In this document: piece after piece, positions 1 through 52,717 of the stretch
Numbering within the stretch: position 1 is the stretch's first letter
Layout of the letters: each line of letters opens with the position of its first letter
DNA from: Balanoglossus misakiensis
Taxonomy: Eukaryota > Animalia > Hemichordata
Direction: 5' to 3'
Assembly: GCA_040954595.2 (NCBI GenBank)
Contig: CM082578.2
Coordinates: 525,740-589,739, forward strand
Length of the DNA stretch: 64,000 nucleotides
Translations under genes and position numbers: made by a program
The notes under the pieces: generated by a model
What the model saw: the letters and a program-made list of their open reading frames with translations, nothing else
Told to the model about the DNA's origin: nothing
Databases searched by the model: none

Positions 1-2
1 CT

Positions 3-1505
3 GCCCCGGCTATTTTTACACGGGTAGTAGGGGCGTTGATGGCTTTTCTTCATTCCCGAGCAGTACAAGCCAATCCATACCTGGACGACTGGTTGCTACA
101 CAATTCCAGTTTCCAGTTGACACTGGCAGACACACAAACCACACTACGGGAGACCGTTCGTGTGGGGTTCATTCCGAGCACAGATAAGTCTTGTCTAATC
201 CCCTCACAGAGGATCCAGTTCATTGGCATGGTCATGGATCTGTCCAAGGGTTTAGTTTTCCCTACGGAGGAAAACTTGTTGAAATTAGAACAACAAGTGC
301 ATCGGATCAGTTCAGAGTCCATGGTCCAAGCACGCACATTGCTCAGCATCCTGGGTCGCATGAACTTTCTAGCCGAGGCAATACCTTTAGGCAGACTACA
401 TATGAGGCCAATTCAACTGTTCCTGTTGGCTCATTGGAGGCCGGTATCCGGTCAGTTGACAGACCTTATTCAGGTAAAGCCACCTCTAGTTTCACACCTG
501 CAATGGTGGCTAGACAGGGGGAATACTCTCGAGGGAAATCCCCTAGTATCCCCGTTGGCGACGGTGTCACTGTTTGTGGACGCATCTCTCCAAGGGTGGG
601 GTGCACACTTGGGAGACAGGACAATTTCAGGGATATGGTCAGTCGACCAGTCAGTGCGGCACATAAATTGGTTGGAAATGAAGGCAGTACAGTATGCACT
701 TCTCCACTTTCACCAAGACATTTGCGGCAAGGTGATTCTGATCAGGTCAGACAACACCACAGTAGTCGCATTTATAAATCACCAGGGCGGCACCAGATCA
801 CCCAGCCTGTGTTATCTGGTATGGGACATGCTGAATTGGTGCCAGGCGAACAGCATCACGCTGAAAGCACTCCACGTTCAGGGCACAAGCAACATTCTGG
901 CAGATGCTCTATCACGGGACAAGTTATATCCACTAGAGTGCGCTCTACGGCAACCGCTAGTAGAGCAGATTTGTCTGATTTGGGACAGGCCCCACGTAGA
1001 CCTATTTGCGACAGCCAAGAATCGCAAGTTCCCGATTTACGCGTCACTAAGGTCGGAACCACAAGCACTAGCATGCGACGCTCTGTCAATCAGCTGGAAG
1101 GGAATGTTGGCATATGCATTTCCCCCACTACCGTTGATCTCCAGGGTAATTTCCAAGGTAGCACACGAAGAATGCGAAATACTTCTAGTTGCACCACTAT
1201 GGCCAACACGTCCTTGGTTTCCAAGACTACTCCAGTTACTGGTGGACTGTCCACTGACATTACCACACAATTGCATGGAGGAGACTGTTCGGCTGCCTCC
1301 GGTAGCACAACACCTTCACCTCCACGCTTGGAGACTATCAAGCTCAGTTTGCAGGCAAGAGGCTTTTCTGCAGAAGCTGCCTCGCGCATCGCACAACGCC
1401 GACGAGCATCCACCACGGCAGCATATGATTCAAAGTGGTGTTCCTTTCGTCATTGGTGTGAGAAAAGGTCGATTGATTTTCTCAGACCCACGCCTCCTCA
1501 GCTAG
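3..1505 (+). CDS. DIRS pol: reverse transcriptase (C-terminal part), RNase H and Dam-like N6-adenine methyltransferase domain
   Basis: Frame is open from base 3 (APAIFTR). Motifs: RT YLDDW; RNase H FVDAS, HINWLE, RSDN, NILADALSR; MTase VDLFAT and YAFPP. Confidence 0.92.
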   Translation, partial: APAIFTRVVGALMAFLHSRAVQANPYLDDWLLHNSSFQLTLADTQTTLRETVRVGFIPSTDKSCLIPSQRIQFIGMVMDLSKGLVFPTEENLLKLEQQVHRISSESMVQARTLLSILGRMNFLAEAIPLGRLHMRPIQLFLLAHWRPVSGQLTDLIQVKPPLVSHLQWWLDRGNTLEGNPLVSPLATVSLFVDASLQGWGAHLGDRTISGIWSVDQSVRHINWLEMKAVQYALLHFHQDICGKVILIRSDNTTVVAFINHQGGTRSPSLCYLVWDMLNWCQANSITLKALHVQGTSNILADALSRDKLYPLECALRQPLVEQICLIWDRPHVDLFATAKNRKFPIYASLRSEPQALACDALSISWKGMLAYAFPPLPLISRVISKVAHEECEILLVAPLWPTRPWFPRLLQLLVDCPLTLPHNCMEETVRLPPVAQHLHLHAWRLSSSVCRQEAFLQKLPRASHNADEHPPRQHMIQSGVPFVIGVRKGRLIFSDPRLLS

Positions 1506-2395
1506 CAGATTTTTTCCTCTACTTGTTTAGGGAGAAAAAGACAGCAGTGAGCACTATTAAGGCGTACCGTTCAGCTATAGGTAACACACTTCGATTGTTG
1601 GGTGAGGAAGTTACTACCCTGGACGGGTCTATTTCTGCTTTGATTAGTAATTTCTCTTTGGCGCGACCAGTTGTAAAGTCACTGGTTCCCCAGTGGAGTT
1701 TATCTTTGGTTCTACATGCTTTATTAGGAGCTCCATTTGAACCTTTGCAAACAGCAGAGATGAAGTTCTTGACGTACAAGACTGTTTTTCTTTTGGCATT
1801 AGCTACGGCAGGTCGCCGTAGTGAGCTTCATGCCCTGTCTATGGCTTCAGCTCATATTCGTTGGTCAGCAGACAGTGTCACTTTGCTTACTGACCCAGCT
1901 TTCTTGGCAAAGAATCGGATTGCGGATCTGCCACAATCGCCTCTGGTTATTCCGAAACTGACGAAGTTAGTCGGTCAGCGTTCAGAGGATAGGTTGCTCT
2001 GTCCTATCAGAGCACTGAAGTATTATTTGCAGAGAACAAAAGACAGGAGGGGAGAGCAGACAAGACTGTTTATCTCCATTAGGGTTACACCCAGTATGTC
2101 TATTTCACAGTCGACTATTTCCAGATGGATCGTCGAGACTATTAAGTTTGCTTATTCTAGCCCTTCAGAAGAAGCAATTAGCTGGGCTAAGGTGTCAGCT
2201 CATGAAGTCAGAGCTCTTGCTGCTTCATGGTCACTTTTTTCAGGGACTTCCATGGCTGATTTATTGTCTGCAGTCCAGTGGAGATCACAGACTACTTTTT
2301 CCTCTGCTTATCTGCGAGATATGGCAGCGGAAGCAGATGGCTTATTTTCCTTGGGTCCTATCTGTGTAGCTCAAAGGGTAGCTCACAGTAAGTAA
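191..2395 (+). CDS. DIRS tyrosine recombinase (long ORF overlapping pol; the recognisable YR part starts at ~1330)
   Basis: N-terminal binding domain (RRASTTAAYDSKW...STIKAYRSAI); catalytic residues GRRSEL, AHEVR, QWRS, SAYLRD all present. Confidence 0.92.
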   Translation: MSNPLTEDPVHWHGHGSVQGFSFPYGGKLVEIRTTSASDQFRVHGPSTHIAQHPGSHELSSRGNTFRQTTYEANSTVPVGSLEAGIRSVDRPYSGKATSSFTPAMVARQGEYSRGKSPSIPVGDGVTVCGRISPRVGCTLGRQDNFRDMVSRPVSAAHKLVGNEGSTVCTSPLSPRHLRQGDSDQVRQHHSSRIYKSPGRHQITQPVLSGMGHAELVPGEQHHAESTPRSGHKQHSGRCSITGQVISTRVRSTATASRADLSDLGQAPRRPICDSQESQVPDLRVTKVGTTSTSMRRSVNQLEGNVGICISPTTVDLQGNFQGSTRRMRNTSSCTTMANTSLVSKTTPVTGGLSTDITTQLHGGDCSAASGSTTPSPPRLETIKLSLQARGFSAEAASRIAQRRRASTTAAYDSKWCSFRHWCEKRSIDFLRPTPPQLADFFLYLFREKKTAVSTIKAYRSAIGNTLRLLGEEVTTLDGSISALISNFSLARPVVKSLVPQWSLSLVLHALLGAPFEPLQTAEMKFLTYKTVFLLALATAGRRSELHALSMASAHIRWSADSVTLLTDPAFLAKNRIADLPQSPLVIPKLTKLVGQRSEDRLLCPIRALKYYLQRTKDRRGEQTRLFISIRVTPSMSISQSTISRWIVETIKFAYSSPSEEAISWAKVSAHEVRALAASWSLFSGTSMADLLSAVQWRSQTTFSSAYLRDMAAEADGLFSLGPICVAQRVAHSK

Positions 2396-2468
2396 TAGCC
2401 TGGTTCTTTCTGTTGGAATTTTGTTTTTTCGGTTCAAGTCCCACCGCCAGTTGTTCCTTGGGACTCTG

Positions 2469-2864
2469 TAGGCTATAGGTTGGATCAAAGGTATGGTATT
2501 TATGCCATAGAAACAAAAAAATTTCTATTTTCGTTTCTGTTAGTAAATACTTACCTTTGATCCAACCAGGTACCCACCCGCCTCCCCACACTTGACCTGT
2601 GACTGTTTTTCCATTATTCATACATTTTGGATGGGTCCTCAGTGCGTGGGCAGCATAGTTTCGGCCTGAGCAGTTATTTCTCGTGCTGAGCAATACTGAA
2701 TATTCACGGCTGGACAGGTGGTATATGTACTCGGTGAGTATGACGTAATCAGGGGAAAGTTTTTTTATCTCAGCGGTCGTTAGAGGGCGAGATATATTAG
2801 GCTATAGGTTGGATCAAAGGTAAGTATTTACTAACAGAAACGAAAATAGAAAATTTTTTGTTTC
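2469..2864 (+). repeat. DIRS internal complementary region (ICR) and right terminal repeat
   Basis: TAGGCTATAGGTTGGATCAAAGGTA occurs at 2469-2493 and 2798-2822; 2510-2567 is the near-exact reverse complement of 2807-2864. Confidence 0.88.
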
Positions 2865-2872
2865 CTTCACAG

Positions 2873-5742
2873 AATGACAAAGATATTGAAACAATCCTAA
2901 ATCTTGCAAGACTGGGTCCGGATATTGCCAGCACGCTTGATGATATCTTTGATGCATATGAGACGGGGACTCTAAAAGGACAAAAATTCACCAAGAAAAC
3001 TTTGATGGCTAAACCTGATATACCTGTATATCTATTTAGCAACCTTGTTCTCCTAAATGAAGATACAGTCAGTGATTTTCTCCAAAATGTCAGAGAGGGG
3101 GAGATGAGCCTGCAGGAGATGAATAGAGAAGCAAAAGATGTAAAAAAGATGAAGGTTATACAACAGAATATGATGAAAGAACTTCAGATGCCATGGCAGA
3201 TATTTTCAAAAAAATTACCTGAGTATGCCGGCAGAGAGTATCTTAGCCGGTTCAAGGACTTGTCATTCAGCAGAGGAATACCAGCAGAAATGGTGACTGA
3301 ATGTAAGAAGATCAGGGGGATCCTTGATGCGCAAGACAGTGTTCAAGAATCTGATGCCACAAACATTTTCACTGGACAAGATGGTACCCGAGGTTGTGTA
3401 CTAAACACTGATGTTACTTCCTTAAATGCAAAGGAAATCAAGGCCTGTTGTCCAGACTTTACAGGGGCTGAACTCACTCTCATTAATATGGATGAGGTAT
3501 AATTAAGAGAGAGATTGATTTTATAAAATTACATGCACAGAATTTTTTAATGTAAAGGCTTGAACTGTACACCAGTGCATGTGAGCTCCACTTGTTATGT
3601 AATTTTGGATATTTGTACACATGCTTCAAGTTATATTTAATTCTAAATCATTTTTGTTGTAATATTTGTTTCCATGTCAAATCCCTGAAGCATAATGAAA
3701 TACCCATGATATAGTTTATCTGCATGACATGTGTACAGTTGACATTGTTATTGTTGTGAACTGAAGTCAAGTTCAGACTGCAATATACCTCACGGTATCA
3801 ATGTTATATTATCTTTCATGACATGACAGTGGTGCTGATTAAAGTTTAACATTGCATTGAAATTCTATATCTCAACAGATTGTTGGTGATGAAAATATTT
3901 GAAAAGTGATGGCAACTGTAAAAGCTGTAAATCTGGATTGTGGTGTCCCGTACTACAATGTTGTGGTATTCTGCGAGACAGATGAAATCCGTGGGGTCAG
4001 GAGCATCCTGAAACAAACTTGTCTTCAAACAGAGGAGGCATTCTACTTTGTGAAAAATAACAAATCATGTAAGTATTATAATTTCAGCTAGATGTCATCT
4101 GTTTTTGGCTGTTGAGTTTCAAATACCAGTAAAATTAAGCCCCATGATAGGATAATTATGGCACATTTTGGAGGTGTCAATTCACCTTCCTCAAATAGCC
4201 TTTGTTGTTTATTTTAAGGGTTTTATATCTTTTGACATGACGTACCATCATTTAGTGGGTCAAATTCAGAGAATACCAGAGTAAAATGATCAACACGTAA
4301 CACATTGAAGATCAAAAGGCTTAGAAAATTGTTAATATTTTTTTATTTCAATAACTTAAATGAGCTTGATATTGTTTTCTGCTGAGAGTATTTTAATCAT
4401 TTTAACATGGAAGGTTCAGTATGTATCTGTTGTACGCACATTAAGATTTATGCTTGGCTTCTCTTTATCTGATTTTTCTCATTGAACTGGGAATCTCACA
4501 CATTAAATCATTTAATTAAAGGTTTGAGATCTATATTAATATTTCTATGTTTTATTGCTGCAGCCAAGAAGACCCTATGGAAATCTGTGTATGGTATAGT
4601 GGTTGGATACTGGGCTGAAGACGGACAGGTGAATGCTACCCAAGTAAATTTTGGGGAGGAAGCACACCATAATATGTGGATTATAGATGACAAGAAAGAC
4701 AAAACACAGATGTATAAACACATCATAAATGTGTTTTCCAGTCAAAAGCGATGGGTATTGGACATTACAAGAAGTATAGGTAAGATTCACAACGAATACA
4801 CTTTTCATCATTGACCATTTTTATAAAAAAATGCAATACATTTCAGGCAAAGATATTTTTGTGATTGTCTGTCACTCACGTGTACATTTTATCATCCATC
4901 AGTCCAATTCAAACCAAAGAAAATTTTGCCAGTTGTTGGCCTCTGTCACTTTAAATTAAAGCAGTGGTATTATAGTAAAATGGAAGACAATACCTAGTCA
5001 TATTAGTAGAATGAATGGGGAAAAAAGTTGTGATCAGGACACAGACAATTATTGTAAAGTCAAAGCAAAAGTAATATTATTAAATTCCTTTTGACAGTGT
5101 AAATGCTTCCACATAGTTACACAAAATGCATTATATGGGGAGAGTCAACAAACATTTGATTTTCGCATTATCATGTTCTCTGGTTCAATACTTACAGTGA
5201 CTGATTTAATTGATGAATGGGCAAGGTTATCTAATAGTAAACATGATTAGGAGATTTTTTTCATGTCATAATATGGTTAGTTGAGAAGTTGTTTCATTTC
5301 ATATGTAATTTTTTAAGCACATTCAAAAAACAGGCTTCATTTTGATGTATTGAAGATGAGTCGTATTATCTGCCAGGAAAAATAGTTACTGCTGAATATG
5401 TTTGAAACCACAAGTAGTTAAAGGGTTCCACAACAATCAATGGATAAACAGGATAAATTTTATCAAATATACTGGGTTTCTCAAATTACCAATCAAAGCA
5501 AGCTGTATATTATATAAACAATGACATAGGAATGGATGCCAGTTTGTATTTTAATTTTTACTATAAATAGTACTTGTGTGTTTTTATTTCCAGGCTCTGT
5601 ATTCACAACGGCGGTGAATCTTGGAAGACCAAGTATATGTGTTGAGACGGACAGCAGTGAGTTGGAGGCAGTCTATTCGCAAGCAACGCAACAACTCCAC
5701 TGGAATGGAGCTGGATATTTAAGCGAAGAAGATTTTAATTAG
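2873..5742 (+). pseudogene. 3' four exons of a spliced gene (2873-3496, 3879-4068, 4564-4779, 5594-5742) encoding a degenerate N6/N4 (beta-class) DNA methyltransferase-like protein; in-frame TGA at 3900-3902
   Basis: All junctions are GT-AG with matching phases (0,1,1); AATAAA at ~6544. Spliced C-terminus YKHIINVFSSQKRWVLDITRSIGSVFTTAVNLGRPSICVETD follows the N6_N4_Mtase pattern (lI...S..gd.VLDpF.GsGtt..aA..lgR..igiE.d). Confidence 0.7.
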
Positions 5743-6080: not shown

Positions 6081-6593
6081 ACTTTATTGAGTTGTTTTAA
6101 TTAGGCAGGAACTCCCCTCCTGTGTTTCATATAAACACAACAAATTCCTGAATGATTACATAACTGGCTAAGTTTTAAAGAGGCCAGCTGTTCTATTTAA
6201 TGTATGTACAGTACATATGCCATTGGCAGCTTATGGGTCAGTCAGTGTTTGCCCATTGATCCTTGCTATGTGTGTGTCTGTCTGTCTGTCGGTATATGGC
6301 CATGTACTCCAGTGTAGACTTTTTCTTGTATAATAACTCAATGGGACCACAGTGTCCTTGAAGAGATTTTTTTCAATTGTTGTCTGCTTGATTGATCTTT
6401 TTTTTTAACGAAATCTTTGAAATATTTTCCAGCTTAAGAATTTTATTTGCCCAATTTATATCATACATGAAATAATCTCCAAGGGATTTTACAAGGTCAT
6501 TCGTAAGAGTTCACATTAAGTTTGCTGTGTGTCATGTATGCTAAATAAATAAGAGAAATCTAATTGTTACTTGTGAGAGTCTATTATTTTTCC

Positions 6594-8673
6594 CCAGGGG
6601 TACTTATTCTCTGCCCTAGCAAGGTCCAGGGGTACTTATTCTCTGCCCTAGCAAGGTCCAGGGGTACCAATTCTCTGCCCTAGCATGGTCCAGGGGTACT
6701 TATTCTCTGCCCTAGCAAGGTCCAGGGGTACCAATTCTCTGCCCTAGCATGGTCCAGGGGTACTTATTCTCTGCCCTAGCAAGGTCCAGGGGTACCAATT
6801 CTCTGCCCTAGCAAGGTCCAGGGGCACTTATTCACTGGCCTAGCAAGGTCCAGGGGTACTTATTCTCTGCCCTAGCAAGGTCCAGGGGTACCAATTTTCT
6901 GCCCTAGCAAGGTCCAGGGGTACCAATTCTCTGCCCTAGCAAGGTCCAGGGGTACCAATTCTCTGCCCTAGCAAGGTCCAGGGGCACTTATTCACTGGCC
7001 TAGCAAGGTCCAGGGGTACTTATTCTCTGCCCTAGCAAGGTCCAGGGGTACCAATTCTCTGCCCTAGCAAGGTCCAGGGGCACTTATTCACTGGCCTAGC
7101 AAGGTCCAGGGGTACTTATTCTCTGCCCTAGCATGGTCCATGGGTTCTTATTCTCTGCCCTAGCAAGGTCCAGGGGTACTTATTCACTGGCCTAGCAAGG
7201 TCCAGGGGTACCAATTCTCTGCCCTAGCAAGGTCCAGGGGCACTTATTCACTGGCCTAGCAAGGTCCAGGGGTACTTATTCTCTGCCCTAGCATGGTCCA
7301 TGGGTTCTTATTCTCTGCCCTAGCAAGGTCCAGGGGTACTTATTCTCTGCCCTAGCAAGGTCCAGGGGTACCAATTCTCTGCCCTAGCAAGGTCCAGGGG
7401 TACCAATTCTCTGCCCTAGCAAGGTCCAGGGGCACTTATTCACTGGCCTAGCAAGGTCCAGGGGTACTTATTCACTGGCCTAGCAAGGTCCAGGGGTACC
7501 AATTCTCTGCCCTAGCATGGTCCAGGGGTACTTATTCTCTGCCCTCGCAAGGTCCAGGGGTACCAATTCTCTGCCCTAGCAAGGTCCAGGGGCACTTATT
7601 CACTGGCCTAGCAAGGTCCAGGGGTACTTATTCTCTGCCCTAGCAAGGTCCAGGGGTACCAATTTTCTGCCCTAGCAAGGTCCAGGGGTACCAATTCTCT
7701 GCCCTAGCAAGGTCCAGGGGTACCAATTCTCTGCCCTAGCAAGGTCCAGGGGCACTTATTCACTGGCCTAGCAAGGTCCAGGGGTACTTATTCTCTGCCC
7801 TAGCAAGGTCCAGGGGTACCAATTCTCTGCCCTAGCAAGGTCCAGGGGCACTTATTCACTGGCCTAGCAAGGTCCAGGGGTACTTATTCTCTGCCCTAGC
7901 ATGGTCCATGGGTTCTTATTCTCTGCCCTAGCAAGGTCCAGGGGTACTTATTCACTGGCCTAGCAAGGTCCAGGGGTACCAATTCTCTGCCCTAGCAAGG
8001 TCCAGGGGCACTTATTCACTGGCCTAGCAAGGTCCAGGGGTACTTATTCTCTGCCCTAGCATGGTCCATGGGTTCTTATTCTCTGCCCTAGCAAGGTCCA
8101 GGGGTACTTATTCTCTGCCCTAGCAAGGTCCAGGGGTACCAATTCTCTGCCCTAGCAAGGTCCAGGGGCACTTATTCACTGGCCTAGCAAGGTCCAGGGG
8201 TACTTATTCTCTGCCCTAGCAAGGTCCAGGGGTACCAATTCTCTGCCCTAGCAAGGTCCAGGGGCACTTATTCACTGGCCTAGCAAGGTCCAGGGGTACT
8301 TATTCTCTGCCCTAGCATGGTCCATGGGTTCTTATTCTCTGCCCTAGCAAGGTCCAGGGGTACTTATTCACTGGCCTAGCAAGGTCCAGGGGTACCAATT
8401 CTCTGCCCTAGCAAGGTCCAGGGGCACTTATTCACTGGCTTAGCAAGGTCCAGGGGTACTTATTCTCTGCCCTAGCAAGGTCCAGGGGTACTTATTCTCT
8501 GCCCTAGCAAGGTCCAGGGGTACCAATTCTCTGCCCTAGCATGGTCCAGGGGTACTTATTCTCTGCCCTAGCAAGGTCCAGGGGTACCAATTCTCTGCCC
8601 TAGCAAGGTCCAGGGGCACTTATTCACTGGCCTAGCAAGGTCCAGGGGTACTTATTCTCTGCCCTAGCAAGGT
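6594..8673. repeat. 32-bp minisatellite, ~65 copies (CCAGGGGTACTTATTCTCTGCCCTAGCAAGGT and variants)
   Basis: Period 32 read directly (6601, 6633, ...); about four recurring variants. Confidence 0.98.
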
Positions 8674-9007
8674 GGTAGAGTCGTAGCACCATAGTTTCTT
8701 ATTCTCAGAGCTACTGGCCATCTCACCTTTTATAAAAAAAAAAATCAAAATCCAACAGAAGAAACAAAAATAAACCTAGGTGAATTGTCTGAAAAAATAT
8801 TTGGTTACCCATGATCATTTGCAAACTCTAATTTTTATAGCAGGAAAAAACATATTTTAGATCATTCTTGTATCAAAGAAGATTTTTTAAAAATTAGGAG
8901 AGGTAAATATTCAAAATATGTTGATAGCAAATATTATTTTGGTTTTTCATTGGAAAACATAAAAATTCAGGATATCTCATTTTACAAAAATATTTCTCAT
9001 GGTGTTC

Positions 9008-12000
9008 CTGACACTCTACAGCAGAAACAGTTGCACACTGGTAACGTTGAACAAGTCGATTTTTCTACGGCCTGGCTCGGCTAAATCTCCGTCACAATAT
9101 GACAGACACTAGCGTACGTTAGCAACGGTGATCAAGTCAGATTTTCTACGGCATGGCTTGGATAAAGTCCCGCCACTCTAGAGCAGAAACACGCGTACAG
9201 TGACCACGTTGATCAAGTCTGTACTCCTACGGCTTGGCTCGACTAAAACCCCGGCACACTATGACAGACACTAGCGTTCGTTAGCGACGTTGATCAAGTC
9301 AGATTTCCTACGGCGTGACCCGGCTGGTGCACTGGCTCTATATGACACAGACTGGCCTAAGTTATGAACGGTGATTACGTCGGATTTCCTACGGCCTGGT
9401 TTAGCTGAAGCCCCGGCACTTTAGAGCGGAAACACGCGTACATTGACCACGATGATCAAGTCAGATCTCCTACGGCCTGGCTCGACTAAAACCCCGGCAC
9501 ACCATGACAGACACAAGCGTTCGTTAGCAACGTTGATCAAGTCAGATTTCCTACGGCATGGCTTGGCTAAAGCCCTGGCAGTCTAGAGCAGAAACACGCG
9601 TACAGAGACCACGTTGATCTACTCACATTTCCTTCGGCCTGGCACGGCTGATGCCCCGGCACTATATATAGGACACAGACTGGCGTAAGTTATCAACGGT
9701 GATTACGTCGGATTTCCTACGGCCTGGTTTAGCTGAAGCCCCGGCACTTTAGAGCGGAAACACGCGTACATTGACCACGATTATCAAGTCAGATCTCTTA
9801 CGGCTTGGCTCGACTAAAACCCCGGCACACCATGACAGACACTAGCGTTCGTTAGCAACGGTGATCAAGTCGGATTTCCTTCGGCCTGGCTCTGCAAAAG
9901 ACCCGACACTCTAGTACAAAGACGTTGGCTAAAAAACCTTTGTTCTTCGAATTTGGTGCCCTGATCATATATGACATGTTGATTGTATGTTTAAACTTTC
10001 GACCACTCCAAAAATGCAGAGATATTGACGGAATTCAAGAAAAAATAGCCATTTTGGCCATATTTTGACAAAAAATGGTAAATTTAAAAAAAAAATCATA
10101 AAAAATTAACTCTTTTCTTCATTTTCGGAAATATTATGGAGCATGAAGTGTCGTTCTCTTGTAAAAAGTGCTGCAAATTCCAGAAAAGGCGGTATAATTT
10201 GAATCACCCAAGACAAAATTACCATTTTCGACCTTTTTTCGAAAAAATTGTCTTTTTTACAAAATAAATAAGAATAAATTCTTTTCTTAGTTTCAAACGG
10301 GTAGAGATACTTTCCCAACGGGTTTTCTAACATTGTATTCCCGTTCATCAACTCAGATTTCCTACAGCATAAGTCGGCTAAAACCCTGACACTCTACAGC
10401 AGAAACAGTTGCACACTGGTAACGTTGAACAAGTCGATTTTTCTACGGCCTGGCTCGGCTAAATCTCCGTCACAATATGACAGACACTAGCGTACGTTAG
10501 CAACGGTGATCAAGTCAGATTTTCTATGGCATGGCTTGGATAAAGCCCCGCCACTCTAGAGCAGAAACACGCGTACAGAGACAACGTTGATCAAGTCTGA
10601 TCTCCTACGGCTTGGCTCGACTAAAACCCCGGCACACTATGACAGACACTAGCGTTCGTTAGCAACGTTGATCAAGTCAGATTTCCTACGGCGTGACCCG
10701 GCTGGTGCACTGGCTCTATATGACACAGACTGGCCTAAGTTATGAACGGTGATTACGTCGGATTTCCTACGGCCTGGTTTAGCTGAAGCCCCGGCACTTT
10801 AGAGCGGAAACACGCGTACATTGACCACGATGATCAAGTCAGATCTCCTACGGCCTGGCTCGACTAAAACCCCGGCACACCATGACAGACACAAGCGTTC
10901 GTTAGCAACGTTGATCAAGTCAGATTTCTTACGGCATGGCTTGGCTAAAGCCCTGGCAGTCTAGAGCAGAAACACGCGTACAGAGACCACGTTGATCTAC
11001 TCACATTTCCTTCGGCCTGGCACGGCTGATGCCCCGGCACTATATATAGGACACAGACTGGCGTAAGTTATCAACGGTGATTACGTCGGATTTCCTACGG
11101 CCTGGTTTAGCTGAAGCCCCGGCACTTTAGAGCGGAAACACGCGTACATTGACCACGATTATCAAGTCAGATCTCCTACGGCTTGGCTCGACTAAAACCC
11201 CGGCACACCATGACAGACACTAGCGTTCGTTAGCAACGGTGATCAAGTCGGATTTCCTTCGGCCTGGCTCTGCAAAAGACCCGACACTCTAGTACAAAGA
11301 CGTTGGCTAAAAAACCTTTGTTCTTCGAATTTGGTGCCCTGATCATATATGACATGTTGATTGTATGTTTAAACTTTCGACCACTCCAAAAATGCAGAGA
11401 TATTGACGGAATTCAAGAAAAAATAGCCATTTTGGCCATATTTTGACAAAAAATGGTAAATTAAAAAAAAAAATCATAAAAAATTAACTCTTTTCTTCAT
11501 TTTCGGAAATATTATGGAGCATGAAGTGTCGTTCTCTTGTAAAAAGTGCTGCAAATTCCAGAAAAGGCGGTATAATTTGAATCACCCAAGACAAAATTAC
11601 CATTTTCGACCTTTTTTCGAAAAAATTGTCTTTTTTACAAAATAAATAAGAATAAATTCTTTTCTTAGTTTCAAACGGGTAGAGATACTTTCCCAACGGG
11701 TTTTCTAACATTGTATTCCCGTTCATCAACTCAGATTTCCTACAGCATAAGTCGGCTAAAACCCTGACACTCTACAGCAGAAAGAGTTGCACACTGGTAA
11801 CGTTGAACAAGTCGATTTTTCTACGGCCTGGCTCGGCTAAATCTCCGTCACAATATGACAGACACTAGCGTACGTTAGCAACGGTGATCAAGTCAGATTT
11901 TCTATGGCATGGCTTGGATAAAGCCCCGCCACTCTAGAGCAGAAACACGCGTACAGAGACAACGTTGATCAAGTCTGATCTCCTACGGCTTGGCTCGACT

Positions 12001-15000
12001 AAAACCCCGGCACACTATGACAGACACTAGCGTTCGTTAGCAACGTTGATCAAGTCAGATTTCCTACGGCGTGACTCGGCTGGTGCACCGGCTCTATATG
12101 ACACAGACTGGCCTAAGTTATCTACGGTGATTACGTCGGATTTCCTACGGCCTGGTTTAGCTGAAGCCCCGGCACTTTAGAGCGGAAACACGCGTACATT
12201 GACCACGATGATCAAGTCAGATCTCCTACGGCCTGGCTCGACTAAAACCCCGGCACACCATGACAGACACAAGCGTTCGTTAGCAACGTTGATCAAGTCA
12301 CATTTCCTACGGCATGGCTTGGCTAAAGCCCTGGCACTCTAGAGCAGAAACACGCGTACAGAGACCACGTTGATCTACTCACATTTCCTTCGGCCTGGCA
12401 CGGCTGATGCCCCGGCACTATATATAGGACACAGACTGGCGTAAATTATCAACGGTGATTACGTCGGATTTCCTACGGCCTGGTTTAGCTGAAGCCCCGG
12501 CACTTTAGAGCGGAAACACGCGTACATTGACCACGATGATCAAGTCAGATCTCCTACGGCCTGGCTCGACTAAATCTCCGTCACAATATGACAGACACTA
12601 GCGTACGTTAGCAACGGTGATCAAGTCAGATTTTCTACGGCATGGCTTGGATAAAGCCCCGGCACACTAGAGCAGAAACACGGGTACAGAGACCACGTTG
12701 ATCAAGTCTGATCTCCTACGGCTTGGCTCGACTAAAACCCCGGCACACTATGACAGACACTAGCGTTCGTTAGCAACGTTGATCAAGTCAGATTTCCCAC
12801 GGCATGGCTTGGCTAAAGCCCTGGCACTCTAGAGCAGAAACACGCGTACAGAGACCACGTTGATCTACTCACATTTCCTTCGGCCTGGCACGGCTGATGC
12901 CCCGGCACTATATATAGGACACAGACTGGCGTAAGTTAACAACGGTAATCACGTCGGGTTTTCATACGGCCTGGCTCAGCTGAAGCCCCGGCACTCTAGA
13001 GCAGAAACAGGCGTACATTGACCACGTTGATCAAGTCAGATTTCCTACGGCGCGACTCGGCTGGTGCACCGGCTCTATATGACACAGACTGGCGAAAGTT
13101 ATCAACGGTGATTACGTCGGATTTCCTACGGCCTGGTTTAGCTGAAGCCCCGGCACTTTAGAGCGGAAACACGCGTACATTGACCACGATGATCAAGTCA
13201 GATCTCCTACGGCCTGGGTCGACTAAAACCCCGGCACACCATGACAGACACTAGCGTTCGTTAGCAACGGTGATCAAGTCGGATTTCCTTCGGCCTGGCT
13301 CTGCAAAAGACCCGACACTCTAGTACAAAGACGTTGGCTAAGTCGGGCAAACCGAAGAGGGAAAGTCACAGCGGGTCAACACTCGACATTTGTTCGGGTA
13401 GGACTGCATTATTGCCTGTCAATTTATAGAGAAAGCCCGAATTTAACCAGGGCGCTTCAAACACCGACGTTAGTTGGGGGCACGGCCTGCAGTACTGCCG
13501 GGTAAGCTGACATCGGCGTACGGCATATAATGTAGGGGGGGGGGGGGGACAGAACGGTTCAATACTACATTTATTAGATATCAGCTAATTTTGGACAATC
13601 ATCTAAAATCTAAATCATTTTTTCATATTTGGATATCTGATGATGTATGAAATTTCCATTATATGTAAAAATGGTGCTTATTATAAAAAATGCACTCTGA
13701 ATGAGCTGATTTAATACAAGATTCCGTTTTATTCGTTTTTGCACCAAAAAGGTCATTTTTAGGCAAAACATTCTTTATTTTTTTAATTCGGTGACCTGAT
13801 CATATATAAACAATTGCTTGTATGTTAAAAGTTTTTATGACTTTTAAAAGCAGTGACACTGGCGGCATTCAACACGAAAATAACAATTTTAGCCACAATT
13901 TGGTCAACATGGTAAATTTTTGAAAATTACAAAAAATACCTGTTTTCTACATTTTCGGAAATCTGATGGAGTATAGAATGCTCTTCGTATGTATACATCG
14001 ATACAAATTCCACAAATGACCGTCTAATTTTGGCTCACTGCAGACAAAATTGCTATTTACCAAATTTTCCTTGACAATGTCATTTTACAAAAAAAAATAA
14101 AAAACCTTTGTTCTTCGAATTTGGTGCCTGATCATATATGACATTTTGATTGTATGTTAAAACTTTCGACCACTCCAAAAATGCTGAGATATTGACGGAA
14201 TTTAAGAAAAAATAGCCATTTTGGCCATATTTTGACAAAAATGGTAAATTTTTAAAAAATCTTAAAAAAATAACTCTTTTCTTCATTTTCGGAAATATTA
14301 TGGAGCATGAAGTGTCGTTCTCTTGTAAAAAGTGCTGCAAATTCTAGAAAAGGCGGTATAATTTGAATCACCCAAGACAAAATTACCATTTTCGACTTTT
14401 TTTCGAAAAATTGTCTTTTTTACAAAATAAATAAGAATAAATTCTTTTCTTAGCTTCAAACGGGTAGAGATACTTTCCACACGGGTTTTCTAACATTGAA
14501 TTCCCGTTCATCAACTCAGATTTCCTACAGCATAAGTCGGCTAAAACCCTGACACTCTAGAGCAGAAACAGTTGCACACTGGTAACGTTGAACAAGTCGA
14601 ATTTTCTACGGCCTGGCTCGGCTAAATCTCCGTCACAATATGACAGACACTAGCGTACGTTAGCAACGGTGATCAAGTCAGATTTTCTACGGCATGGCTT
14701 GGATAAAGCCCCGGCACTCTAGAGCAGAAACACGCGTACAGAGACCACGTTGATCAAGTCTGATCTCCTACGGCTTGGCTCGACTAAAACCCCGGCACAC
14801 TATGACAGACACTAGCGTTCGTTAGCAACGTTGATCAAGTCAGATTTCCTACGGCATGGCTTGGCTAAAGCTCTGGCACTCTAGAGCAGAAACACGCGTA
14901 CAGTGACCACGTTGATCTACTCACATTTCCTTCGGCCTGGCACGGCTGATGCCCTGGCACTATATATAGGACACAGACTGGCGTAAGTTAACAACGGTAA

Positions 15001-18000
15001 TCACGTCGGGTTTCCTACGGCCAGGTTTAACTGAAGCCCCGGCACTTTAGAGCGGAAACACGCGTACATTGACCACGATGATCATGTCAGATCTCCTACG
15101 GCCTGGCTCGACTAAAACCCCGGCACACCATGACAGACACTAGCGTTCGTTAGCAACGGTGATCAAGTCGGATTTCCTTCGGCCTGGCTCTGGAAAAGAC
15201 CTGACACTCTCGTACAAAGACATTGGCTAAGTCGGGCAAACCGAAGAGGGAAAGTCACAGCGGGTCAACACTCGACATTTGTTCGGGTAGGACTGCATTA
15301 TTGCCTGTCAATTTATAGAGAAAGCCCGAATTAAACCAGGGCGTTTCAAACACCGACGTTAGTTGGGGGCACGGCCTGCAGTACTGCCGGGTAAGCTGAC
15401 ATCGGCGTACCGCATGTAATGTAGGGGGGGGGGGGGGAACAGAACGGTTCAATACTACATTTATTAGATATCAGTTAATTTTGGACAATCATCTAAAATC
15501 TAAATAATTTTTTCATATTTGGATATCTGATGATGTATGAAATTTCCATTATATGTAAAAATGGTGCTGATTATAAAAAATATACTCTGAATGAGCTGAT
15601 TTAATACAAGATTGCGTTTTATTCGTTTTTGCACCAAAAAGGTCATTTTTAGGCAAAACATTCTTTATTTTTTTAATTCGGTGACCTGATCATATATAAA
15701 CAATTGCTTGTATGTTAAAAGTTTTTATGACTTTTAAAAGCAGTGACACTGGCGGCATTCATCACGAAAATAACAATTTTAGCCACAATTTGGTCAAAAA
15801 TGGTAAATTTTTGAAAATTACGAAAAATACCTGTTTTCTACATTTTCGGAAATCTGATGGAGTATAGAATGCTCTTCGTATATATATATCGATACAAATT
15901 CCACAAAAGACCGTCTAATTTTGCTCACTGCAGACAAAATTGCGTTTTACCAAATTTTCCTTGAAAATGTCATTTTAGAAAAAAAAATAAAAAACCTTTG
16001 TTCTTCGAATTTGATGCCCTGATCATATATGACATGTTGATTGTATGTTAAAACTTTCGACCACTCCAAAAATGCTGAGATATTGACGGAATTCAAGAAT
16101 AAATAGCCATTTTGGCCATATTTTGGCAAAAATGGTAAATTTTAAAAAAATCTTAAAAAATTAACTCTTTTCTTCATTTTCAGAAATATTATGGAGCATG
16201 AAGTGTCGTTCTCTTGTAAAAAGTGCTGCAAATTCCAGAAAAGGCGGTATAATTTGAATCACCCAAGACAAAATTACCATTTTCGACTTTTTTTTCGAAA
16301 AATTGTCTTTTTTACAAAATAAATAAGAATAAATTCTTTTCTTAGTTTGAAACGGGTAGAGATACTTTCCACACAGGTTTTCTAACATTGAATTCCCGTT
16401 CATCAACTCAGATTTCCTACAGCATCAGTCGGCTAAAACCCTGACACTCTAGAGCAGAAACAGTTGCACACTGGTAACGTTGAACAAGTCGATTTTTCTA
16501 CGGCCTGGCTCGGCTAAATCTCCGTCACAATATGACAGACACTAGCGTACGTTAGCAACGGGGATCAAGTCAGATTTTCTACGGCATGGCTTGGATAAAG
16601 CCCCGGCACTCTAGAGCAGAAACACGCGTACAGAGACCACGTTGATCTACTCATATTTTCCTCGGCCTGGCACGGCTGATGCCCCGGCACTATATATAGG
16701 ACACAGACTGGCGTAAGTTAACAACGGTAATCACGTCGGGTTTCCTACGGCCTGGCTCAGCTGAAGCCCCGGCACTCTAGAGCAGAAACAGGCGTACATT
16801 GACCACGTTGATCAAGTCAGATTTCCTACGGCGTGACTCGGCTGGTGCACCGGCTCTATATGACACAGACTGGCGTACGTTATCAACGGTGATTACGTCG
16901 GATTTCCTACGGCCTGGTTTAGCTGAAGCCCCGGCACTTTAGAGCGGAAACACGCGTACATTGACCACGATGATCAAGTCAGATCTCCTACGGCCTGGCT
17001 CGACTAAAACCCCGGCACACCATGACAGACACTAGCGTTCGTTAGCAACGGTGATCAAGTCGGATTTCCTTCGGCCTGGCTCTGCAAAAGACCCGACACT
17101 CTAGTACAAAGACGTTGGCTAAGTCGGGCAAACCGAAGAGGGAAAGTCACAGCGGGTCAACACTCGACATTTGTTCGGGTAGGACTGCATTATTGCCTGT
17201 CAATTTATAGAGAAAGCCCGAATTTAACCAGGGCGCTGCAAACACCGACGTTAGTTGTGGGCACGGCCTGCAGTACTGACGGGTAAGCTGACATCGGCGT
17301 ACCGCATATAATGTAGGGGGGGGGGAACAAAACGGTTCAATACTACATTTATTAGATATCAGCTAATTTTGGACAATCATCTAAAATCGAAATCATTTTT
17401 TCATATTTGGATATCTGATGATGTATGAAATTTCCATTATATGTAAAAATTGTGCTGATTGTTAAAAAATGCACTCTGAATGAGCTGATTTAATACAAAA
17501 TTGCGTTTTATTCGTTTTTGCACCAAAAATATCATTTTTAGGGAAAACATTCTTTATTCTTTAAATTCGGTGACCTGATCATATATAAACAATTGCTTGT
17601 ATGTTAAAAGTTTTAATGACTTTTAAAAGCAGTGACACTGGCGGCATTCAACACGAAAATAACAATTTTAGCCACAATTTGGTCAAAATGGTAAATTTTT
17701 GAAAATTACAAAAAATACCTGTTTTCTACATTTTCGGAAATCTGATGGAGTATAGAATGCTCTTCGTATGTATATATCGATACAAATTCCACAAAAGACC
17801 GTCAAATTTGGCTCACTGCAGACAAAATTGCGTTTTACCAAATTTTCCTTGAAAATGTCATTTTAGAAAAAAAAATAAAAAACCTTTGTTCTTCGAATTT
17901 GATGCCCTGATCATATATGACATGTTGATTGTATGTTAAAACTTTCGACCACTCCAAAAATGCTGAGATATTGACGGAATTCAAGAATAAATAGCCATTT

Positions 18001-21000
18001 TGGCCATATTTTGGCAAAAATGGTAAATTTTAAAAAAATCTTAGAAAATTAACTCTTTTCTTCATTTTCAGAAATATTATGGAGCATGAAGTGTCGTTCT
18101 CTTGTAAAAAGTGCTGCAAATTCCAGAAAAGGCGGTATAATTTGAATCACCCAAGACAAAATTACCATTTTCGACTTTTTTTTCGAAAAATTGTCTTTTT
18201 TACAAAATAAATAAGAATAAATTCTTTTCTTAGTTTCAAACGGGTAGAGATACTTTCCACACAGGTTTTCTAACATTGAATTCCCGTTCATCAACTCAGA
18301 TTTCCTACAGCATCAGTCGGCTAAAACCCTGACACTCTAGAGCAGAAACAGTTGCACACTGGTAACGTTGAACAAGTCGATTTTTCTACGGCCTGGCTCG
18401 GCTAAATCTCCGTCACAATATGACAGACACTAGCGTACGCTAGCAACGGGGACCAAGTCAGATTTTCTACGTCATGGCTTGGATAAAGCCCCGGCACTCT
18501 AGAGCAGAAACACGCGTACAGAGACCACGTTGATCTACTCATATTTTCCTCGGCCTGGCACGGCTGATGCCCCGGCACTATATATAGGACACAGACTGGC
18601 GTAAGTTAACAACGGTAATCACGTCGGGTTTCCTACGGCCAGGTTTAACTGAAGCCCCGGCACTTTAGAGCGGAAACACGCGTACATTGACCACGATGAT
18701 CAAGTCAGATCTCCTACGGCCTGGCTCGACTAAAACCCCGGCACACCATGACAGACACTAGCGTTCGTTAGCAACGGTGATCAAGTCGGATTTCCTTCGG
18801 CCTGGCTCTGCAAAAGACCTGACACTCTCGTATAAAGACATTGGCTAAGTCGGGCAAACCGAAGAGGGAAAGTCACAGCGGGTCAACACTCGACATTTGT
18901 TCGGGTAGGACTGCATTATTGCCTGTCAATTTATAGAGAAAGCCCGAATTAAACCAGGGCGTTTCAAACACCGACGTTAGTTGGGGGCACGGCCTGCAGT
19001 AATGCCGGGTAAGCTGACATCGGCGTACCGCATGTAATGTAGGGGGGGGGGGAACAGAACGGTTCAATACTACATTTATTAGATATCAGCTAATTTTGGA
19101 CAATCATCTAAAATCTAAATAATTTTTTCATATTTGGATATCTGATGATGTATGAAATTTCCATTATATGTAAAAATGGTGCTGATTATAAAAAATATAC
19201 TCTGAATGAGCTGATTTAATACAAGATTGCGTTTTATTCGTTTTTGCACCAAAAAGGTCATTTTTAGGCAAAACATTCTTTATTTTTTTAATTCGGTGAC
19301 CTGATCATATATAAACAATTGCTTGTATGTTAAAAGTTTTTATGACTTTTAAAAGCAGTGACACTGGCGGCATTCATCACGAAAATAACAATTTTAGCCA
19401 CAATTTGGTCAAAAATGGTAAATTTTTGAAAATTACGAAAAATACCTGTTTTCTACATTTTCGGAAATCTGATGGAGTATAGAATGCTCTTCGTATATAT
19501 ATATCGATACAAATTCCACAAAAGACCGTCTAATTTTGCTCACTGCAGACAAAATTGCGTTTTACCAAATTTTCCTTGAAAATGTCATTTTAGAAAAAAA
19601 AATAAAAAACCTTTGTTCTTCGAATTTGATGCCCTGATCATATATGACATGTTGATTGTATGTTAAAACTTTCGACCACTCCAAAAATGCTGAGATATTG
19701 ACGGAATTCAAGAATAAATAGCCATTTTGGCCATATTTTGGCAAAAATGGTAAATTTTAAAAAAATCTTAAAAAATTAACTCTTTTCTTCATTTTCAGAA
19801 ATATTATGGAGCATGAAGTGTCGTTCTCTTGTAAAAAGTGCTGCAAATTCCAGAAAAGGCGGTATAATTTGAATCACCCAAGACAAAATTACCATTTTCG
19901 ACTTTTTTTTCGAAAAATTGTCTTTTTTACAAAATAAATAAGAATAAATTCTTTTCTTAGTTTGAAACGGGTAGAGATACTTTCCACACAGGTTTTCTAA
20001 CATTGAATTCCCGTTCATCAACTCAGATTTCCTACAGCATCAGTCGGCTAAAACCCTGACACTCTAGAGCAGAAACAGTTGCACACTGGTAACGTTGAAC
20101 AAGTCGATTTTTCTACGGCCTGGCTCGGCTAAATCTCCGTCACAATATGACAGACACTAGCGTACGTTAGCAACGGGGATCAAGTCAGATTTTCTACGGC
20201 ATGGCTTGGATAAAGCCCCGGCACTCTAGAGCAGAAACACGCGTACAGAGACCACGTTGATCTACTCATATTTTCCTCGGCCTGGCACGGCTGATGCCCC
20301 GGCACTATATATAGGACACAGACTGGCGTAAGTTAACAACGGTAATCACGTCGGGTTTCCTACGGCCTGGCTCAGCTGAAGCCCCGGCACTCTAGAGCAG
20401 AAACAGGCGTACATTGACCACGTTGATCAAGTCAGATTTCCTACGGCGTGACTCGGCTGGTGCACCGGCTCTATATGACACAGACTGGCGTACGTTATCA
20501 ACGGTGATTACGTCGGATTTCCTACGGCCTGGTTTAGCTGAAGCCCCGGCACTTTAGAGCGGAAACACGCGTACATTGACCACGATGATCAAGTCAGATC
20601 TCCTACGGCCTGGCTCGACTAAAACCCCGGCACACCATGACAGACACTAGCGTTCGTTAGCAACGGTGATCAAGTCGGATTTCCTTCGGCCTGGCTCTGC
20701 AAAAGACCCGACACTCTAGTACAAAGACGTTGGCTAAGTCGGGCAAACCGAAGAGGGAAAGTCACAGCGGGTCAACACTCGACATTTGTTCGGGTAGGAC
20801 TGCATTATTGCCTGTCAATTTATAGAGAAAGCCCGAATTTAACCAGGGCGCTGCAAACACCGACGTTAGTTGTGGGCACGGCCTGCAGTACTGACGGGTA
20901 AGCTGACATCGGCGTACCGCATATAATGTAGGGGGGGGGAACAAAACGGTTCAATACTACATTTATTAGATATCAGCTAATTTTGGACAATCATCTAAAA

Positions 21001-24000: not shown

Positions 24001-25166
24001 GCACTCTAGAGCAGAAACAGGCGTACATTGACCACGTTGATCAAGTCAGATTTCCTACGGCGTGACTCGGCTGGTGCACCGGCTCTATATGACACAGACT
24101 GGCGTACGTTATCAACGGTGATTACGTCGGATTTCCTACGGCCTGGTTTAGCTGAAGCCCCGGCACTTTAGAGCGGAAACACGCGTACATTGACCACGAT
24201 GATCAAGTCAGATCTCCTACGGCCTGGCTCGACTAAAACCCCGGCACACCATGACAGACACTAGCGTTCGTTAGCAACGGTGATCAAGTCGGATTTCCTT
24301 CGGCCTGGCTCTGCAAAAGACCCGACACTCTAGTACAAAGACGTTGGCTAAGTCGGGCAAACCGAAGAGGGAAAGTCACAGCGGGTCAACACTCGACATT
24401 TGTTCGGGTAGGACTTCATTATTGCCTGTCAATTTATAGAGAAAGCCCGAATTTAACCAGGGCGCTGCAAACACCGACGTTAGTTGTGGGCACGGCCTGC
24501 AGTACTGACGGGTAAGCTGACATCGGCGTACCGCATATAATGTAGGGGGGGGGGGAACAAAACGGTTCAATACTACATTTATTAGATATCAGCTAATTTT
24601 GGACAATCATCTAAAATCGAAATCATTTTTTCATATTTGGATATCTGATGATGTATGAAATTTCCATTATATGTAAAAATGGTGCTGATTGTTAAAAAAT
24701 GCACTCTGAATGAGCTGATTTAATACAAAATTGCGTTTTATTCGTTTTTGCACCAAAAAGGTCATTTTTAGGGAAAACATTCTTTATTCTTTAAATTCGG
24801 TGACCTGATCATATATAAACAATTGCTTGTATGTTAAAAGTTTTAATGACTTTTAAAAGCAGTGACACTGGCGGCATTCAACACGAAAATAACAATTTTA
24901 GCCACAATTTGGTCAAAATGGTAAATTTTTGAAAATTACAAAAAATACCTGTTTTCTACATTTTCGGAAATCTGATGGAGTATAGAATGCTCTTCGTATA
25001 TATATATCGATACAAATTCCACAAAAAACGACCAATTTGGCTCACTGCAGACAAAATTGCGTTTTACCAAATTTTCCTTGAAAATGTCATTTTTAGAAAA
25101 ATAAAATAAAAAAACCTTTGTTCTTCGAATTTGGTGCCCTGATCATATATGACATGTCGATTGTAT
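9008..25166 (+). repeat. Macrosatellite: array of 81-bp GC/CpG-rich subunits + ~200-bp unique segment ending in a G run + about three degenerate ~330-bp AT-rich subunits
   Basis: CAAGTC motif at 9052, 9133, 9214, 9295 (period 81). Spurious ORFs recur at 1378-bp and at alternating 1888/1727-bp spacing. Confidence 0.97.
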
Positions 25167-25707
25167 TGTTACAGTCGCTCCCCACTGGATCGGAGAACTG
25201 CTAAGTTTTTCTCTCAGATTAACGAATAATTGGGTTCGTGTCGCACTATGAGAGAGAGTGGTACTATCCGTGGGCTTAACGACCCACAGTCCACAAGAAC
25301 ATCAACCTCGATACAACGAAATACTTTTAGAACTACAACAGTTCAACTTTATTACGAAGATATCGTATAAGCGCACATCAAAAGGGCTGCTTACCACACG
25401 GTCTGTCTCCAACGAAGTCTTGGGCCACACTGACTGAAAACCCTCAAAACTAGGCTAACTACCAACTTTTGATTTGCATATTTCGCGCCGTTTCTGGTAG
25501 TAATTAAAATAATAATAGCTGACACGAAATGTGGGTCCTTGTCGTCTAGAACATGACGTAATGTCGCATGTCGAGACCTATTTCGAATATAATGTGTTCG
25601 ACCTACAAATGCTGAGTTTATCAAAGAGATGTATGTCTACCACGTGGAGGTAGACGGCTCTGTCAATCAAAAGTTATATCACCATGGTGACCGACCGTTC
25701 CGTCACA
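25167..25707 (-). repeat. Gypsy 3' LTR
   Basis: Matches 34108-34648 with about 9 substitutions counted by eye; purine tract (TAGTGGGGGGCTA on the minus strand) adjoins at 25708-25720. Confidence 0.97.
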
Positions 25708-34106: not shown

Positions 34107-34107
34107 A

Positions 34108-52675: not shown

Positions 52676-52717
<42 letters not shown>

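What the first reader, a model, noticed from the sequence alone, without database searches (positions are those of the whole stretch)
2873..5742. Intron-containing animal gene resembling a catalytically degenerate bacterial-type N4/N6 DNA methyltransferase
Seen: four phase-compatible exons that the ORF track leaves unconnected. The C-terminus matches beta-class MTase motifs X-I-II (HIINVFS...WVLDITRSIGSVFTTAVNLGRPSICVETD), and VLNTDVTSL...PDFTGAELTLINMD sits where 'GD...l.d.svDli.tDPPY' would be, but DPPY and FxGxG are eroded. A helical domain precedes it. Known: this family is mainly prokaryotic/phage; bdelloid rotifer N4CMT is a horizontally acquired animal example. Inference: a horizontally derived pseudo-methyltransferase, possibly cargo of a large DNA element, which may act as a nucleic-acid-binding protein. 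This copy has a TGA at 3900 and a DIRS insertion, so it is probably dead.
Basis: partly seen in the sequence, partly recalled or inferred. Interest (0 to 1): 0.72.

Follow-up and report, generated by a model that had tools for sequence, protein, structure and literature searches.

The report
Animal ParB–dead-methylase gene, broken copy
These four exons are the broken tail of an unnamed gene family found from sponges to acorn worms, which joins a domain predicted to be ParB-like to a bacterial-type DNA methylase fold lacking its catalytic motif, and which likely travels as an accessory gene of transposons.

Summary
Four AG..GT exons give 392 codons with one TGA and align without gaps to Ptychodera flava proteins (54% over 388 aa; about 80% to a second copy). 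A model built from family sequences alone (pLDDT 87) matches beta-class amino-methyltransferases (CcrM, M1.HpyAVI, N4CMT). Relatives fill 294 clusters. Of 20 looked up, 15 are animals (sponge, cnidarians, nemertean, mussels, sea cucumber, acorn worms), 3 are Chara/Riccia and 2 are unnamed. Complete relatives add an N-terminal domain predicted to be ParB/sulfiredoxin-like, off-window here. Decay looks stepwise: Chara keeps D-x-P-Y; no non-plant member read keeps that aromatic; about half keep the SAM motif; this subfamily lost both. So this is an old intron-sharing family, not a recent transfer like rotifer N4CMT. Near-identical dispersed copies and algal precedents suggest a transposon accessory gene, but no transposase is seen here. 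This copy is a pseudogene: the stop is also in DNA contigs, and a DIRS sits at the upstream acceptor. The scan noted this kind of gene before, in another genome.

The parts
2873..3496 (+). Exon A (first exon in the window): helical domain (about residues 1-172) plus the MTase motif III strand and eroded motif IV (N-M-D-E); ends in a phase-0 intron shared across the family
3879..4068 (+). Exon B: helix after motif IV and core strands; carries the premature stop
3900..3902 (+). In-frame TGA (codon 216), 166 nt before the next exon junction; faces Glu or Thr in relatives; unchanged in the DNA contigs
4564..4779 (+). Exon C: central strands, motif X region (QKP lost), start of motif I (D-I-T-R-S-I-G instead of D-x-x-S-G-T-G)
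5594..5742 (+). Exon D: end of motif I, motif II strand (acidic residue kept), last helix, TAG stop
1..2864 (+). 3' half of a DIRS-type retrotransposon (RT/RNase H ORF 3-1505, tyrosine-recombinase ORF 188-2395, internal complementary region about 2510-2567 matching the end about 2806-2864), sitting in the polypyrimidine tract of the intron before exon A; the ParB-coding exons would lie beyond it, off-window
6544..6549 (+). Only AATAAA/ATTAAA hexamer between the stop and 7000; possible poly(A) signal (untested)

Best explanation
The window holds the last four exons of a stop-broken copy of an intron-containing gene whose relatives join a predicted ParB/sulfiredoxin-fold domain, a helical domain and a beta-class DNA-methyltransferase fold lacking the catalytic motif; the family is likely a non-enzymatic accessory protein of DNA transposons that would bind its own element. 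Shown: the exon chain, the stop, and the spread of the family across animals and streptophytes. Also shown: the shared intron and the motif states (aromatic of motif IV and the following ~12-residue loop missing in the non-plant members; SAM motif kept in about half, lost here). Predicted: the MTase fold (confident model) and the ParB fold (weaker). Inferred mechanism: the ancestor resembled phage and algal ParB-MTase fusions that bind and methylate their own element. In animals catalysis was lost but the fold was kept under selection, most likely as the dimer-forming and DNA-contacting end of a ParB-like clamp (beta-class MTases are dimers; that ParB needs a C-terminal dimer domain is recalled knowledge), marking or protecting element DNA. 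This copy would give a truncated message prone to nonsense-mediated decay.
For: Fold: AlphaFold2 on a 106-row family-only alignment gave pLDDT 86.7. Foldseek best hits were CcrM (E 9e-9), M1.HpyAVI (TM by target 0.74-0.77 over ~205 columns) and N4CMT (E 3e-7). The family profile hits DpnA, RsrI, CcrM and MboIIA. PF01555 is above its cutoff in 9 of 32 relatives scanned. Catalysis lost: 0 of 22 non-plant domains covering motif IV, and 0 of 37 anchored exon fragments, have Y/F/W at position 4, against DFPY/DLPY in 3 of 3 Chara domains; 13 of 27 keep D-x-x-[SCA]-G-x-G. Fold kept: no gap in 388 aa between subfamilies that are 54% identical and both lack the motifs. ParB part: Atlas models of ParB_N(+HTH) match P0003 residues 265-600 at TM 0.50-0.57, one of them a phage ParB-MTase cluster; feature score 0.96 to DUF3723, a Starship accessory family; profile score 19.9 against phage ParB parts, reached by 0 of 60 shuffles. 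Mobility signs: four sponge gene models 98-100% identical on three chromosome-sized contigs; at least four P. flava subfamilies at 26-55% identity, three of them with 93-99% identical copies on different contigs and several copies truncated or frameshifted. Precedent: the ParB + N4/N6-MTase gene in Ectocarpus Sola1-1 (PMC12477816, passages).
Against: There is no transposase, terminal repeat or target-site duplication for a carrier element in the window; downstream is satellite DNA and upstream is off-window. No transposase fusion was found among 106 + 49 + 32 relatives scanned (one DDE hit at E 0.027 only). The contigs laid show no second copy at 80% or more in this organism (contigs drop variants). 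Near-identical P. flava copies on unplaced scaffolds could be haplotigs. Introns conserved across many clusters also fit an old host gene. The ParB match is weak by sequence (hhalign probability 3%; sulfiredoxin E 0.08; no Pfam ParB hit in 49 members), and the box-II arginine is present in only 7 of 67 motif matches, so CTP-driven clamping may be lost. No enriched palindrome that could serve as a binding site lies in or near the gene (13 rows, some duplicated, against a shuffle mean of 7 and a maximum of 14).
Confidence: 0.58

Rival explanations
1. The family is an old, domesticated host gene family (a chromatin or nucleic-acid-binding pseudo-enzyme, like METTL14), and this copy is a dead paralogue.
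For: The intron at motif IV is shared: 39 of 125 short hits end at the same place, and 26 of 37 anchored ones are followed by the Val of a GT donor. The family is present from sponge to deuterostomes. Conservation is gapless. No carrier element was seen, and only one copy was laid in this sample.
Against: There are several deep subfamilies per genome, each with near-identical dispersed copies, and many are broken. The P. flava sequences fall in three separate places of the tree (deep forks unresolved). The same architecture rides in algal transposons (PMC12477816).
Confidence: 0.25
2. Intact members are still active amino-methyltransferases with a rebuilt active site (D-x-P-x-x-W), writing 6mA/4mC on DNA or RNA; only some lineages, including this one, are dead.
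For: 13 of 27 non-plant domains keep the SAM motif, mostly with QKP and the motif II acid. 17 of 22 keep [DNS]-x-P, and five fragments read D-P-P. Chara members keep D-x-P-Y.
Against: The base-stacking aromatic and the loop after motif IV are missing in every non-plant member read. In N4CMT, changing SPPY to APPA abolishes activity (PMC8885841, passages). The conserved Trp aligns with the Phe before the next helix in Chara, not with the motif Tyr. A sponge subfamily without the SAM motif has still multiplied recently.
Confidence: 0.12
3. This locus still works: read-through, exon skipping or DIRS-driven splicing yields a useful ParB-helical or full-length product.
For: All splice sites are intact, and the reads carry an even stronger donor after exon A. 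Only one lesion lies in 392 codons. The DIRS end offers a branch-point-like TACTAAC. Mussel relatives carry the ParB part without the MTase.
Against: The TGA faces Glu/Thr, not Cys. Skipping exon B, or exons B and C, shifts the frame. The in-frame AGs after the stop (3977, 4034, 4037) would remove 33 or more core residues. The stop lies 166 nt before a junction.
Confidence: 0.05

Closest known systems
ParB-like + N4/N6 DNA methyltransferase accessory gene of Ectocarpus Sola1-1_Ec32 and similar algal transposon genes (PMC12477816); Bostrychia Plavaka PAG2/PAG3 (bioRxiv 2025.02.11.637652)
   Same: Same two prokaryote-type domains in a eukaryotic gene; PAG2 carries PF01555 and PAG3 carries a ParB-like domain.
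   Different: Here the host is an animal, catalysis is lost, and no carrier element is shown.
Phage ParB_N + N6_N4_Mtase fusion proteins (beta class, PF01555)
   Same: Domain order ParB - helical - beta MTase. A group of 11 phage domains, 7 of them with a long N-terminus, is sister to the animal+Chara clade (support 0.79 only).
   Different: The phage proteins keep DPPY/SPPY and F-x-G-S-G-T and have no introns; the helical part here is about twice as long.
Bdelloid rotifer N4CMT (PMC8885841, PMC10406627)
   Same: Beta-class fold in an intron-containing animal gene (Foldseek E 3e-7).
   Different: N4CMT is active (SPPY), chromodomain-fused and bdelloid-only. This family is ParB-fused, lacks the motif and spans several phyla; the paper states N4CMT has no eukaryotic homologues, and this is a separate lineage.
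DUF3723 (PF12520) accessory genes of fungal Starships
   Same: Language-model feature score 0.96 to the ParB-helical part of a relative; mobile-element cargo of unknown function.
   Different: No Pfam DUF3723 hit for any relative scanned, so this is a lead only.
METTL14-type pseudo-methyltransferases
   Same: Related permuted fold (Foldseek E ~1e-5) and described as inactive versions (PMC4738411, section 8).
   Different: A different clade; no active partner is known here.

Membership tests
Beta-class N4/N6 DNA methyltransferases (PF01555) | Permuted Rossmann fold with motif IV before motifs X-I-II | tested here: met
   Model of the 54%-identical relative P0002 matches CcrM/M1.HpyAVI; hhalign 98.8% over ~190 columns
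Beta-class N4/N6 DNA methyltransferases (PF01555) | Catalytic motif IV (D/N/S)-P-P-(Y/F/W) | tested here: not met
   N-M-D-E here; 0 of 22 non-plant domains have the aromatic
Beta-class N4/N6 DNA methyltransferases (PF01555) | SAM-binding motif I (F-x-G-x-G) and motif X | tested here: not met
   D-I-T-R-S-I-G and no QKP in this subfamily; kept in 13 of 27 non-plant domains
Beta-class N4/N6 DNA methyltransferases (PF01555) | Methyl transfer to DNA; homodimer | not testable with these tools
   Needs assays; the complex predictor was not available
ParB/sulfiredoxin-fold proteins | ParB_N fold followed by a helical (HTH) domain | tested here: inconclusive
   In relatives only: Atlas TM 0.50-0.57 on a pLDDT-0.52 model; weak profile matches; no Pfam ParB hit
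ParB/sulfiredoxin-fold proteins | Nucleotide-binding box G-x-x-R / G-G-x-H-R | tested here: inconclusive
   The census pattern itself required G-x-H; Arg follows in 7 of 67 matches; the consensus motifs are recalled
ParB-MTase transposon accessory genes (algal Sola/Plavaka type) | ParB-like and N4/N6-MTase domains in one gene | tested here: met
   Complete relatives such as P0158, P0010, P0011 and P0023; ParB exons are off-window for this copy
ParB-MTase transposon accessory genes (algal Sola/Plavaka type) | Location inside an element with transposase, terminal repeats and target-site duplication | tested here: inconclusive
ParB-MTase transposon accessory genes (algal Sola/Plavaka type) | Dispersed near-identical copies | tested here: inconclusive
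   Seen in sponge and P. flava; no second close copy laid in this organism
N4CMT-like horizontally acquired epigenetic writers | SPPY motif, chromodomain, lineage-restricted recent gain | tested here: not met
   No SPPY, no chromodomain among the Pfam hits, spread over several phyla

The most novel reading that the evidence does not exclude
Animal DNA transposons carry a so far undescribed ParB-type DNA clamp, kin to algal ParB-MTase accessory genes and to the Starship DUF3723 genes. In it a bacterial methylase fold has been turned step by step into a dimer- or SAM-sensing module that lets the element recognise and shield its own DNA. Members that keep the SAM pocket might even still write 6mA/4mC, which would supply a missing writer for these marks in animals.
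Probability: 0.28. Interest if true: 0.82.

Novelty: new variant of a known kind. Interest (0 to 1): 0.56.

Why it matters
Beta-class amino-methyltransferases were reported in animals for bdelloid rotifers, with no eukaryotic homologues. This shows a separate, wide animal family of the fold, fused to a ParB-like domain and caught in stages of losing catalysis. If it is transposon cargo, it links algal, fungal (DUF3723) and animal mobile elements through one shared, unexplained accessory machine, and it gives concrete proteins to test: Chara (motif nearly intact), Holothuria/Saccoglossus (SAM site only) and sponge/this subfamily (neither). The copy in this window is itself a pseudogene and matters only as a pointer.

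Tried and rejected
Pfam on single exons gave nothing relevant, and neither did Pfam or NCBIfam on the P. flava proteins; PHROGs gave weak MTase hits (E 0.01-0.05). Three word-index searches found P. flava proteins only; the HMMER search showed that this was a sensitivity limit. The first fold, on a 5-row alignment, was poor (pLDDT 43), and its structure search returned only generic helical bundles; both were discarded. An early 3-sequence hhalign put 'VPYYNV' of exon B on the DPPY position; this register was rejected because the deep profile and the Chara rows place motif IV at the end of exon A. A single-sequence ParB comparison with phage fusions was not significant (7 of 100 shuffles). No relatives were found in viral or metagenome contigs. 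No RNA holder was listed. An assembly error as the cause of the TGA was rejected. parS-like palindromes were not enriched. No whole genome is held, so the upstream exons were out of reach. The homodimer prediction and the VIA re-alignment of the good model were not available, which leaves dimer formation untested. One IQ-TREE run with phage rows gave no answer; FastTree was used instead. A 56-aa bacterial member of one cluster (P0162) was left out of all analyses. The 2011 Iyer review cited by the Ectocarpus paper is not held.

Full report
Observation. The four exons are in the sequence: 2873-3496, 3879-4068, 4564-4779 and 5594-5742, with AG acceptors, GT donors and intron phases 0, 1, 1. They give 392 codons with one internal TGA at 3900-3902. 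The product aligns without gaps to Ptychodera flava XP_070550520.1 (54% over 388 aa) and XP_070550177.1 (78-88% per segment over 296 aa; the TGA faces Glu). One DNA contig covers 2844-5810 with 4 substitutions and none at the stop; two of them make the first donor GTAAGA. These runs are one sample and may be the source. No whole genome is held. The host is likely an acorn worm, judged only from the closest proteins.

Fold. Single exons hit nothing. The Atlas feature search put PF01555 clusters in all ten best rows, but at 0.86-0.88, a lead only. A HMMER search with a two-sequence profile found 294 clusters at E up to 0.001 and 65 up to 1e-10 (best 150 listed). With 106 family rows and no bacterial sequence, AlphaFold2 gave pLDDT 86.7 for the 54%-identical relative P0002; the window's own spliced protein was not folded. 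Foldseek ranked beta-class enzymes first: CcrM E 9e-9, M1.HpyAVI TM 0.74-0.77 by target, N4CMT E 3e-7, with METTL3/14 lower. The family profile also hits these enzymes by sequence and aligns to 54 phage beta-class domains at 98.8% probability.

Spread. I looked up 20 of the 150 listed hits, chosen as the longer ones. Fifteen are animals (Halichondria, Exaiptasia, Actinia, Actinostola, Desmophyllum, Lineus, Mytilus, Holothuria, Saccoglossus, Ptychodera), 3 are streptophytes (Chara, Riccia) and 2 are unnamed. The mussel proteins match by the N-terminal part only. The taxa of the remaining hits are unknown. Of 125 short hits placed on the profile, 39 end where exon A ends; in 26 of the 37 that could be anchored (about three anchors are visibly off), a Val from a GT donor follows motif IV position 4. 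The intron is therefore shared, which supports the exon border and an old intron-bearing ancestor. In a quick tree of 15 family and 54 phage domains, animals plus Chara form one clade (0.999, long stem). Its sister holds 7 long-N-terminus phage proteins among 11, at only 0.79. The phage set was picked by a motif pattern, so no donor is claimed.

Decay. Among 35 aligned MTase domains (near-duplicates included), the 3 Chara domains read DFPY/DLPY. Of 22 non-plant domains covering motif IV, 17 keep [DNS]-x-P, none keeps the aromatic, and the loop after the motif is about 12 residues shorter. Of 27 covering motif I, 13 keep D-x-x-[SCA]-G-x-G. The window's subfamily (window, P0003, P0005; support 99/97) has N-M-D-E, no QKP and D-I-T-R-S-I-G. 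Sponge and anemone members lack the SAM motif too; the deep forks are unresolved, so whether these losses were independent is not shown. Gapless 54% identity between two motif-less subfamilies implies that the fold stayed under selection after catalysis went (inference).

Upstream domain. Complete relatives carry, before the helical part, a domain with a G-G-x-H box. Atlas models match it to ParB_N plus HTH (TM 0.50-0.57), and features match it to DUF3723 (0.96) and an unnamed, mostly sponge cluster (0.94). Sequence support is weak, and the box arginine is rare (7 of 67). For this copy the exons would lie beyond the DIRS, off-window.

Mobility. Four sponge gene models are 98-100% identical on three chromosome-sized contigs. 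P. flava has at least four subfamilies at 26-55% identity, three of them with 93-99% identical copies; one copy is frameshifted and two end early. Against: no transposase or element end in the window, no transposase fusion, and no second close copy laid in this sample.

State of this copy. The stop lies 166 nt before a junction, which by the recalled 50-55-nt rule predicts decay; exon skips shift the frame. The DIRS ends in the polypyrimidine tract and leaves the acceptor intact, so it need not block splicing by itself.

Literature. PMC12477816 (passages, and a supplement search without ParB hits) reports a ParB + N4/N6-MTase gene in Ectocarpus Sola1-1 and calls such proteins a possible new class of transposon accessory proteins. 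bioRxiv 2025.02.11.637652 (passages) describes Plavaka PAG2/PAG3. PMC4738411 (passages and section 8) lists no animal ParB-fused beta clade; its supplement was not seen. PMC8885841 and PMC10406627 (passages) cover N4CMT, SPPY and beta-class dimers. bioRxiv 2021.12.13.472469 and 2025.02.28.640899 (passages) describe DUF3723 as Starship cargo of unknown function. Ten searches (listings read) showed no paper on an animal family of this kind and none holding both DUF3723 and ParB. Subscription papers, Repbase notes and bioRxiv supplements were not searchable and may bear on this. Databases already auto-label some members as N-4/N-6 methylase domain proteins. Earlier scan notes describe a similar animal gene beside a transposase-like gene, and ParB-like DUF3723 genes in fungal elements; they are unchecked leads.

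Verdict. Real gene remnant, beta-class MTase fold, catalytically dead subfamily, pseudogene copy: high confidence. Transposon accessory role about 0.6; the clamp/dimer mechanism is inferred and untested. New variant of a known kind; interest 0.56.

Noticed in passing
window 2806-2872: The DIRS right end carries a strong donor-like AAG|GTAAGT (GT at 2820-2821) and a TACTAAC branch-like motif about 40 nt before the host acceptor. It may rebuild the branch point it displaced, or splice DIRS transcripts onto exon A through a 53-nt intron.
   Followed up: partly
window 1-2864: DIRS contigs run about six times deeper than the gene in one run, with only 9 differences in 2.5 kb: likely a young, low-copy family.
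   Followed up: partly
window 6594-8673: 32-bp minisatellite, about 65 copies, 850 nt after the gene's stop; no palindrome in the unit.
   Followed up: partly
window 9006-25700, 34100-39300, 60600-63600: 81-bp satellite arranged in higher-order units (about 1.38 kb, then 1.7-1.9 and 3.6 kb), CpG observed/expected about 1.1 against 0.2 in introns; one block is inverted. Possibly pericentromeric or part of a large element.
   Followed up: no
window 25700-34100 (-): Gypsy-type LTR retrotransposon (gag, protease, RT, integrase) with frame breaks, inserted in the satellite; it carries an extra 315-aa ORF of unknown family at 25942-26889.
   Followed up: no
window 46594-53306 (-): Second tyrosine-recombinase retroelement remnant with an ALOG domain (Ngaro/DIRS-like), plus RT and zinc-knuckle pieces.
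   Followed up: no
window 58579-59703 (+): Crypton-like ORF (DUF3504, QRICH1 and integrase hits).
   Followed up: no
window 40077-43014 (-): Penelope/LINE-like RT fragment and a zinc-knuckle ORF1-like fragment.
   Followed up: no
proteins P0023, P0128 (Chara), P0110 (Riccia): Streptophyte ParB-MTase proteins; the Chara ones keep D-x-P-Y and G-G-G-H-x-R, so they are the best candidates for an active enzyme.
   Followed up: partly
proteins P0121, P0141 (Mytilus), P0068 (Desmophyllum): The ParB-like part occurs without the MTase in mussels, and with a weak Death-domain hit (below cutoff) in a coral.
   Followed up: no
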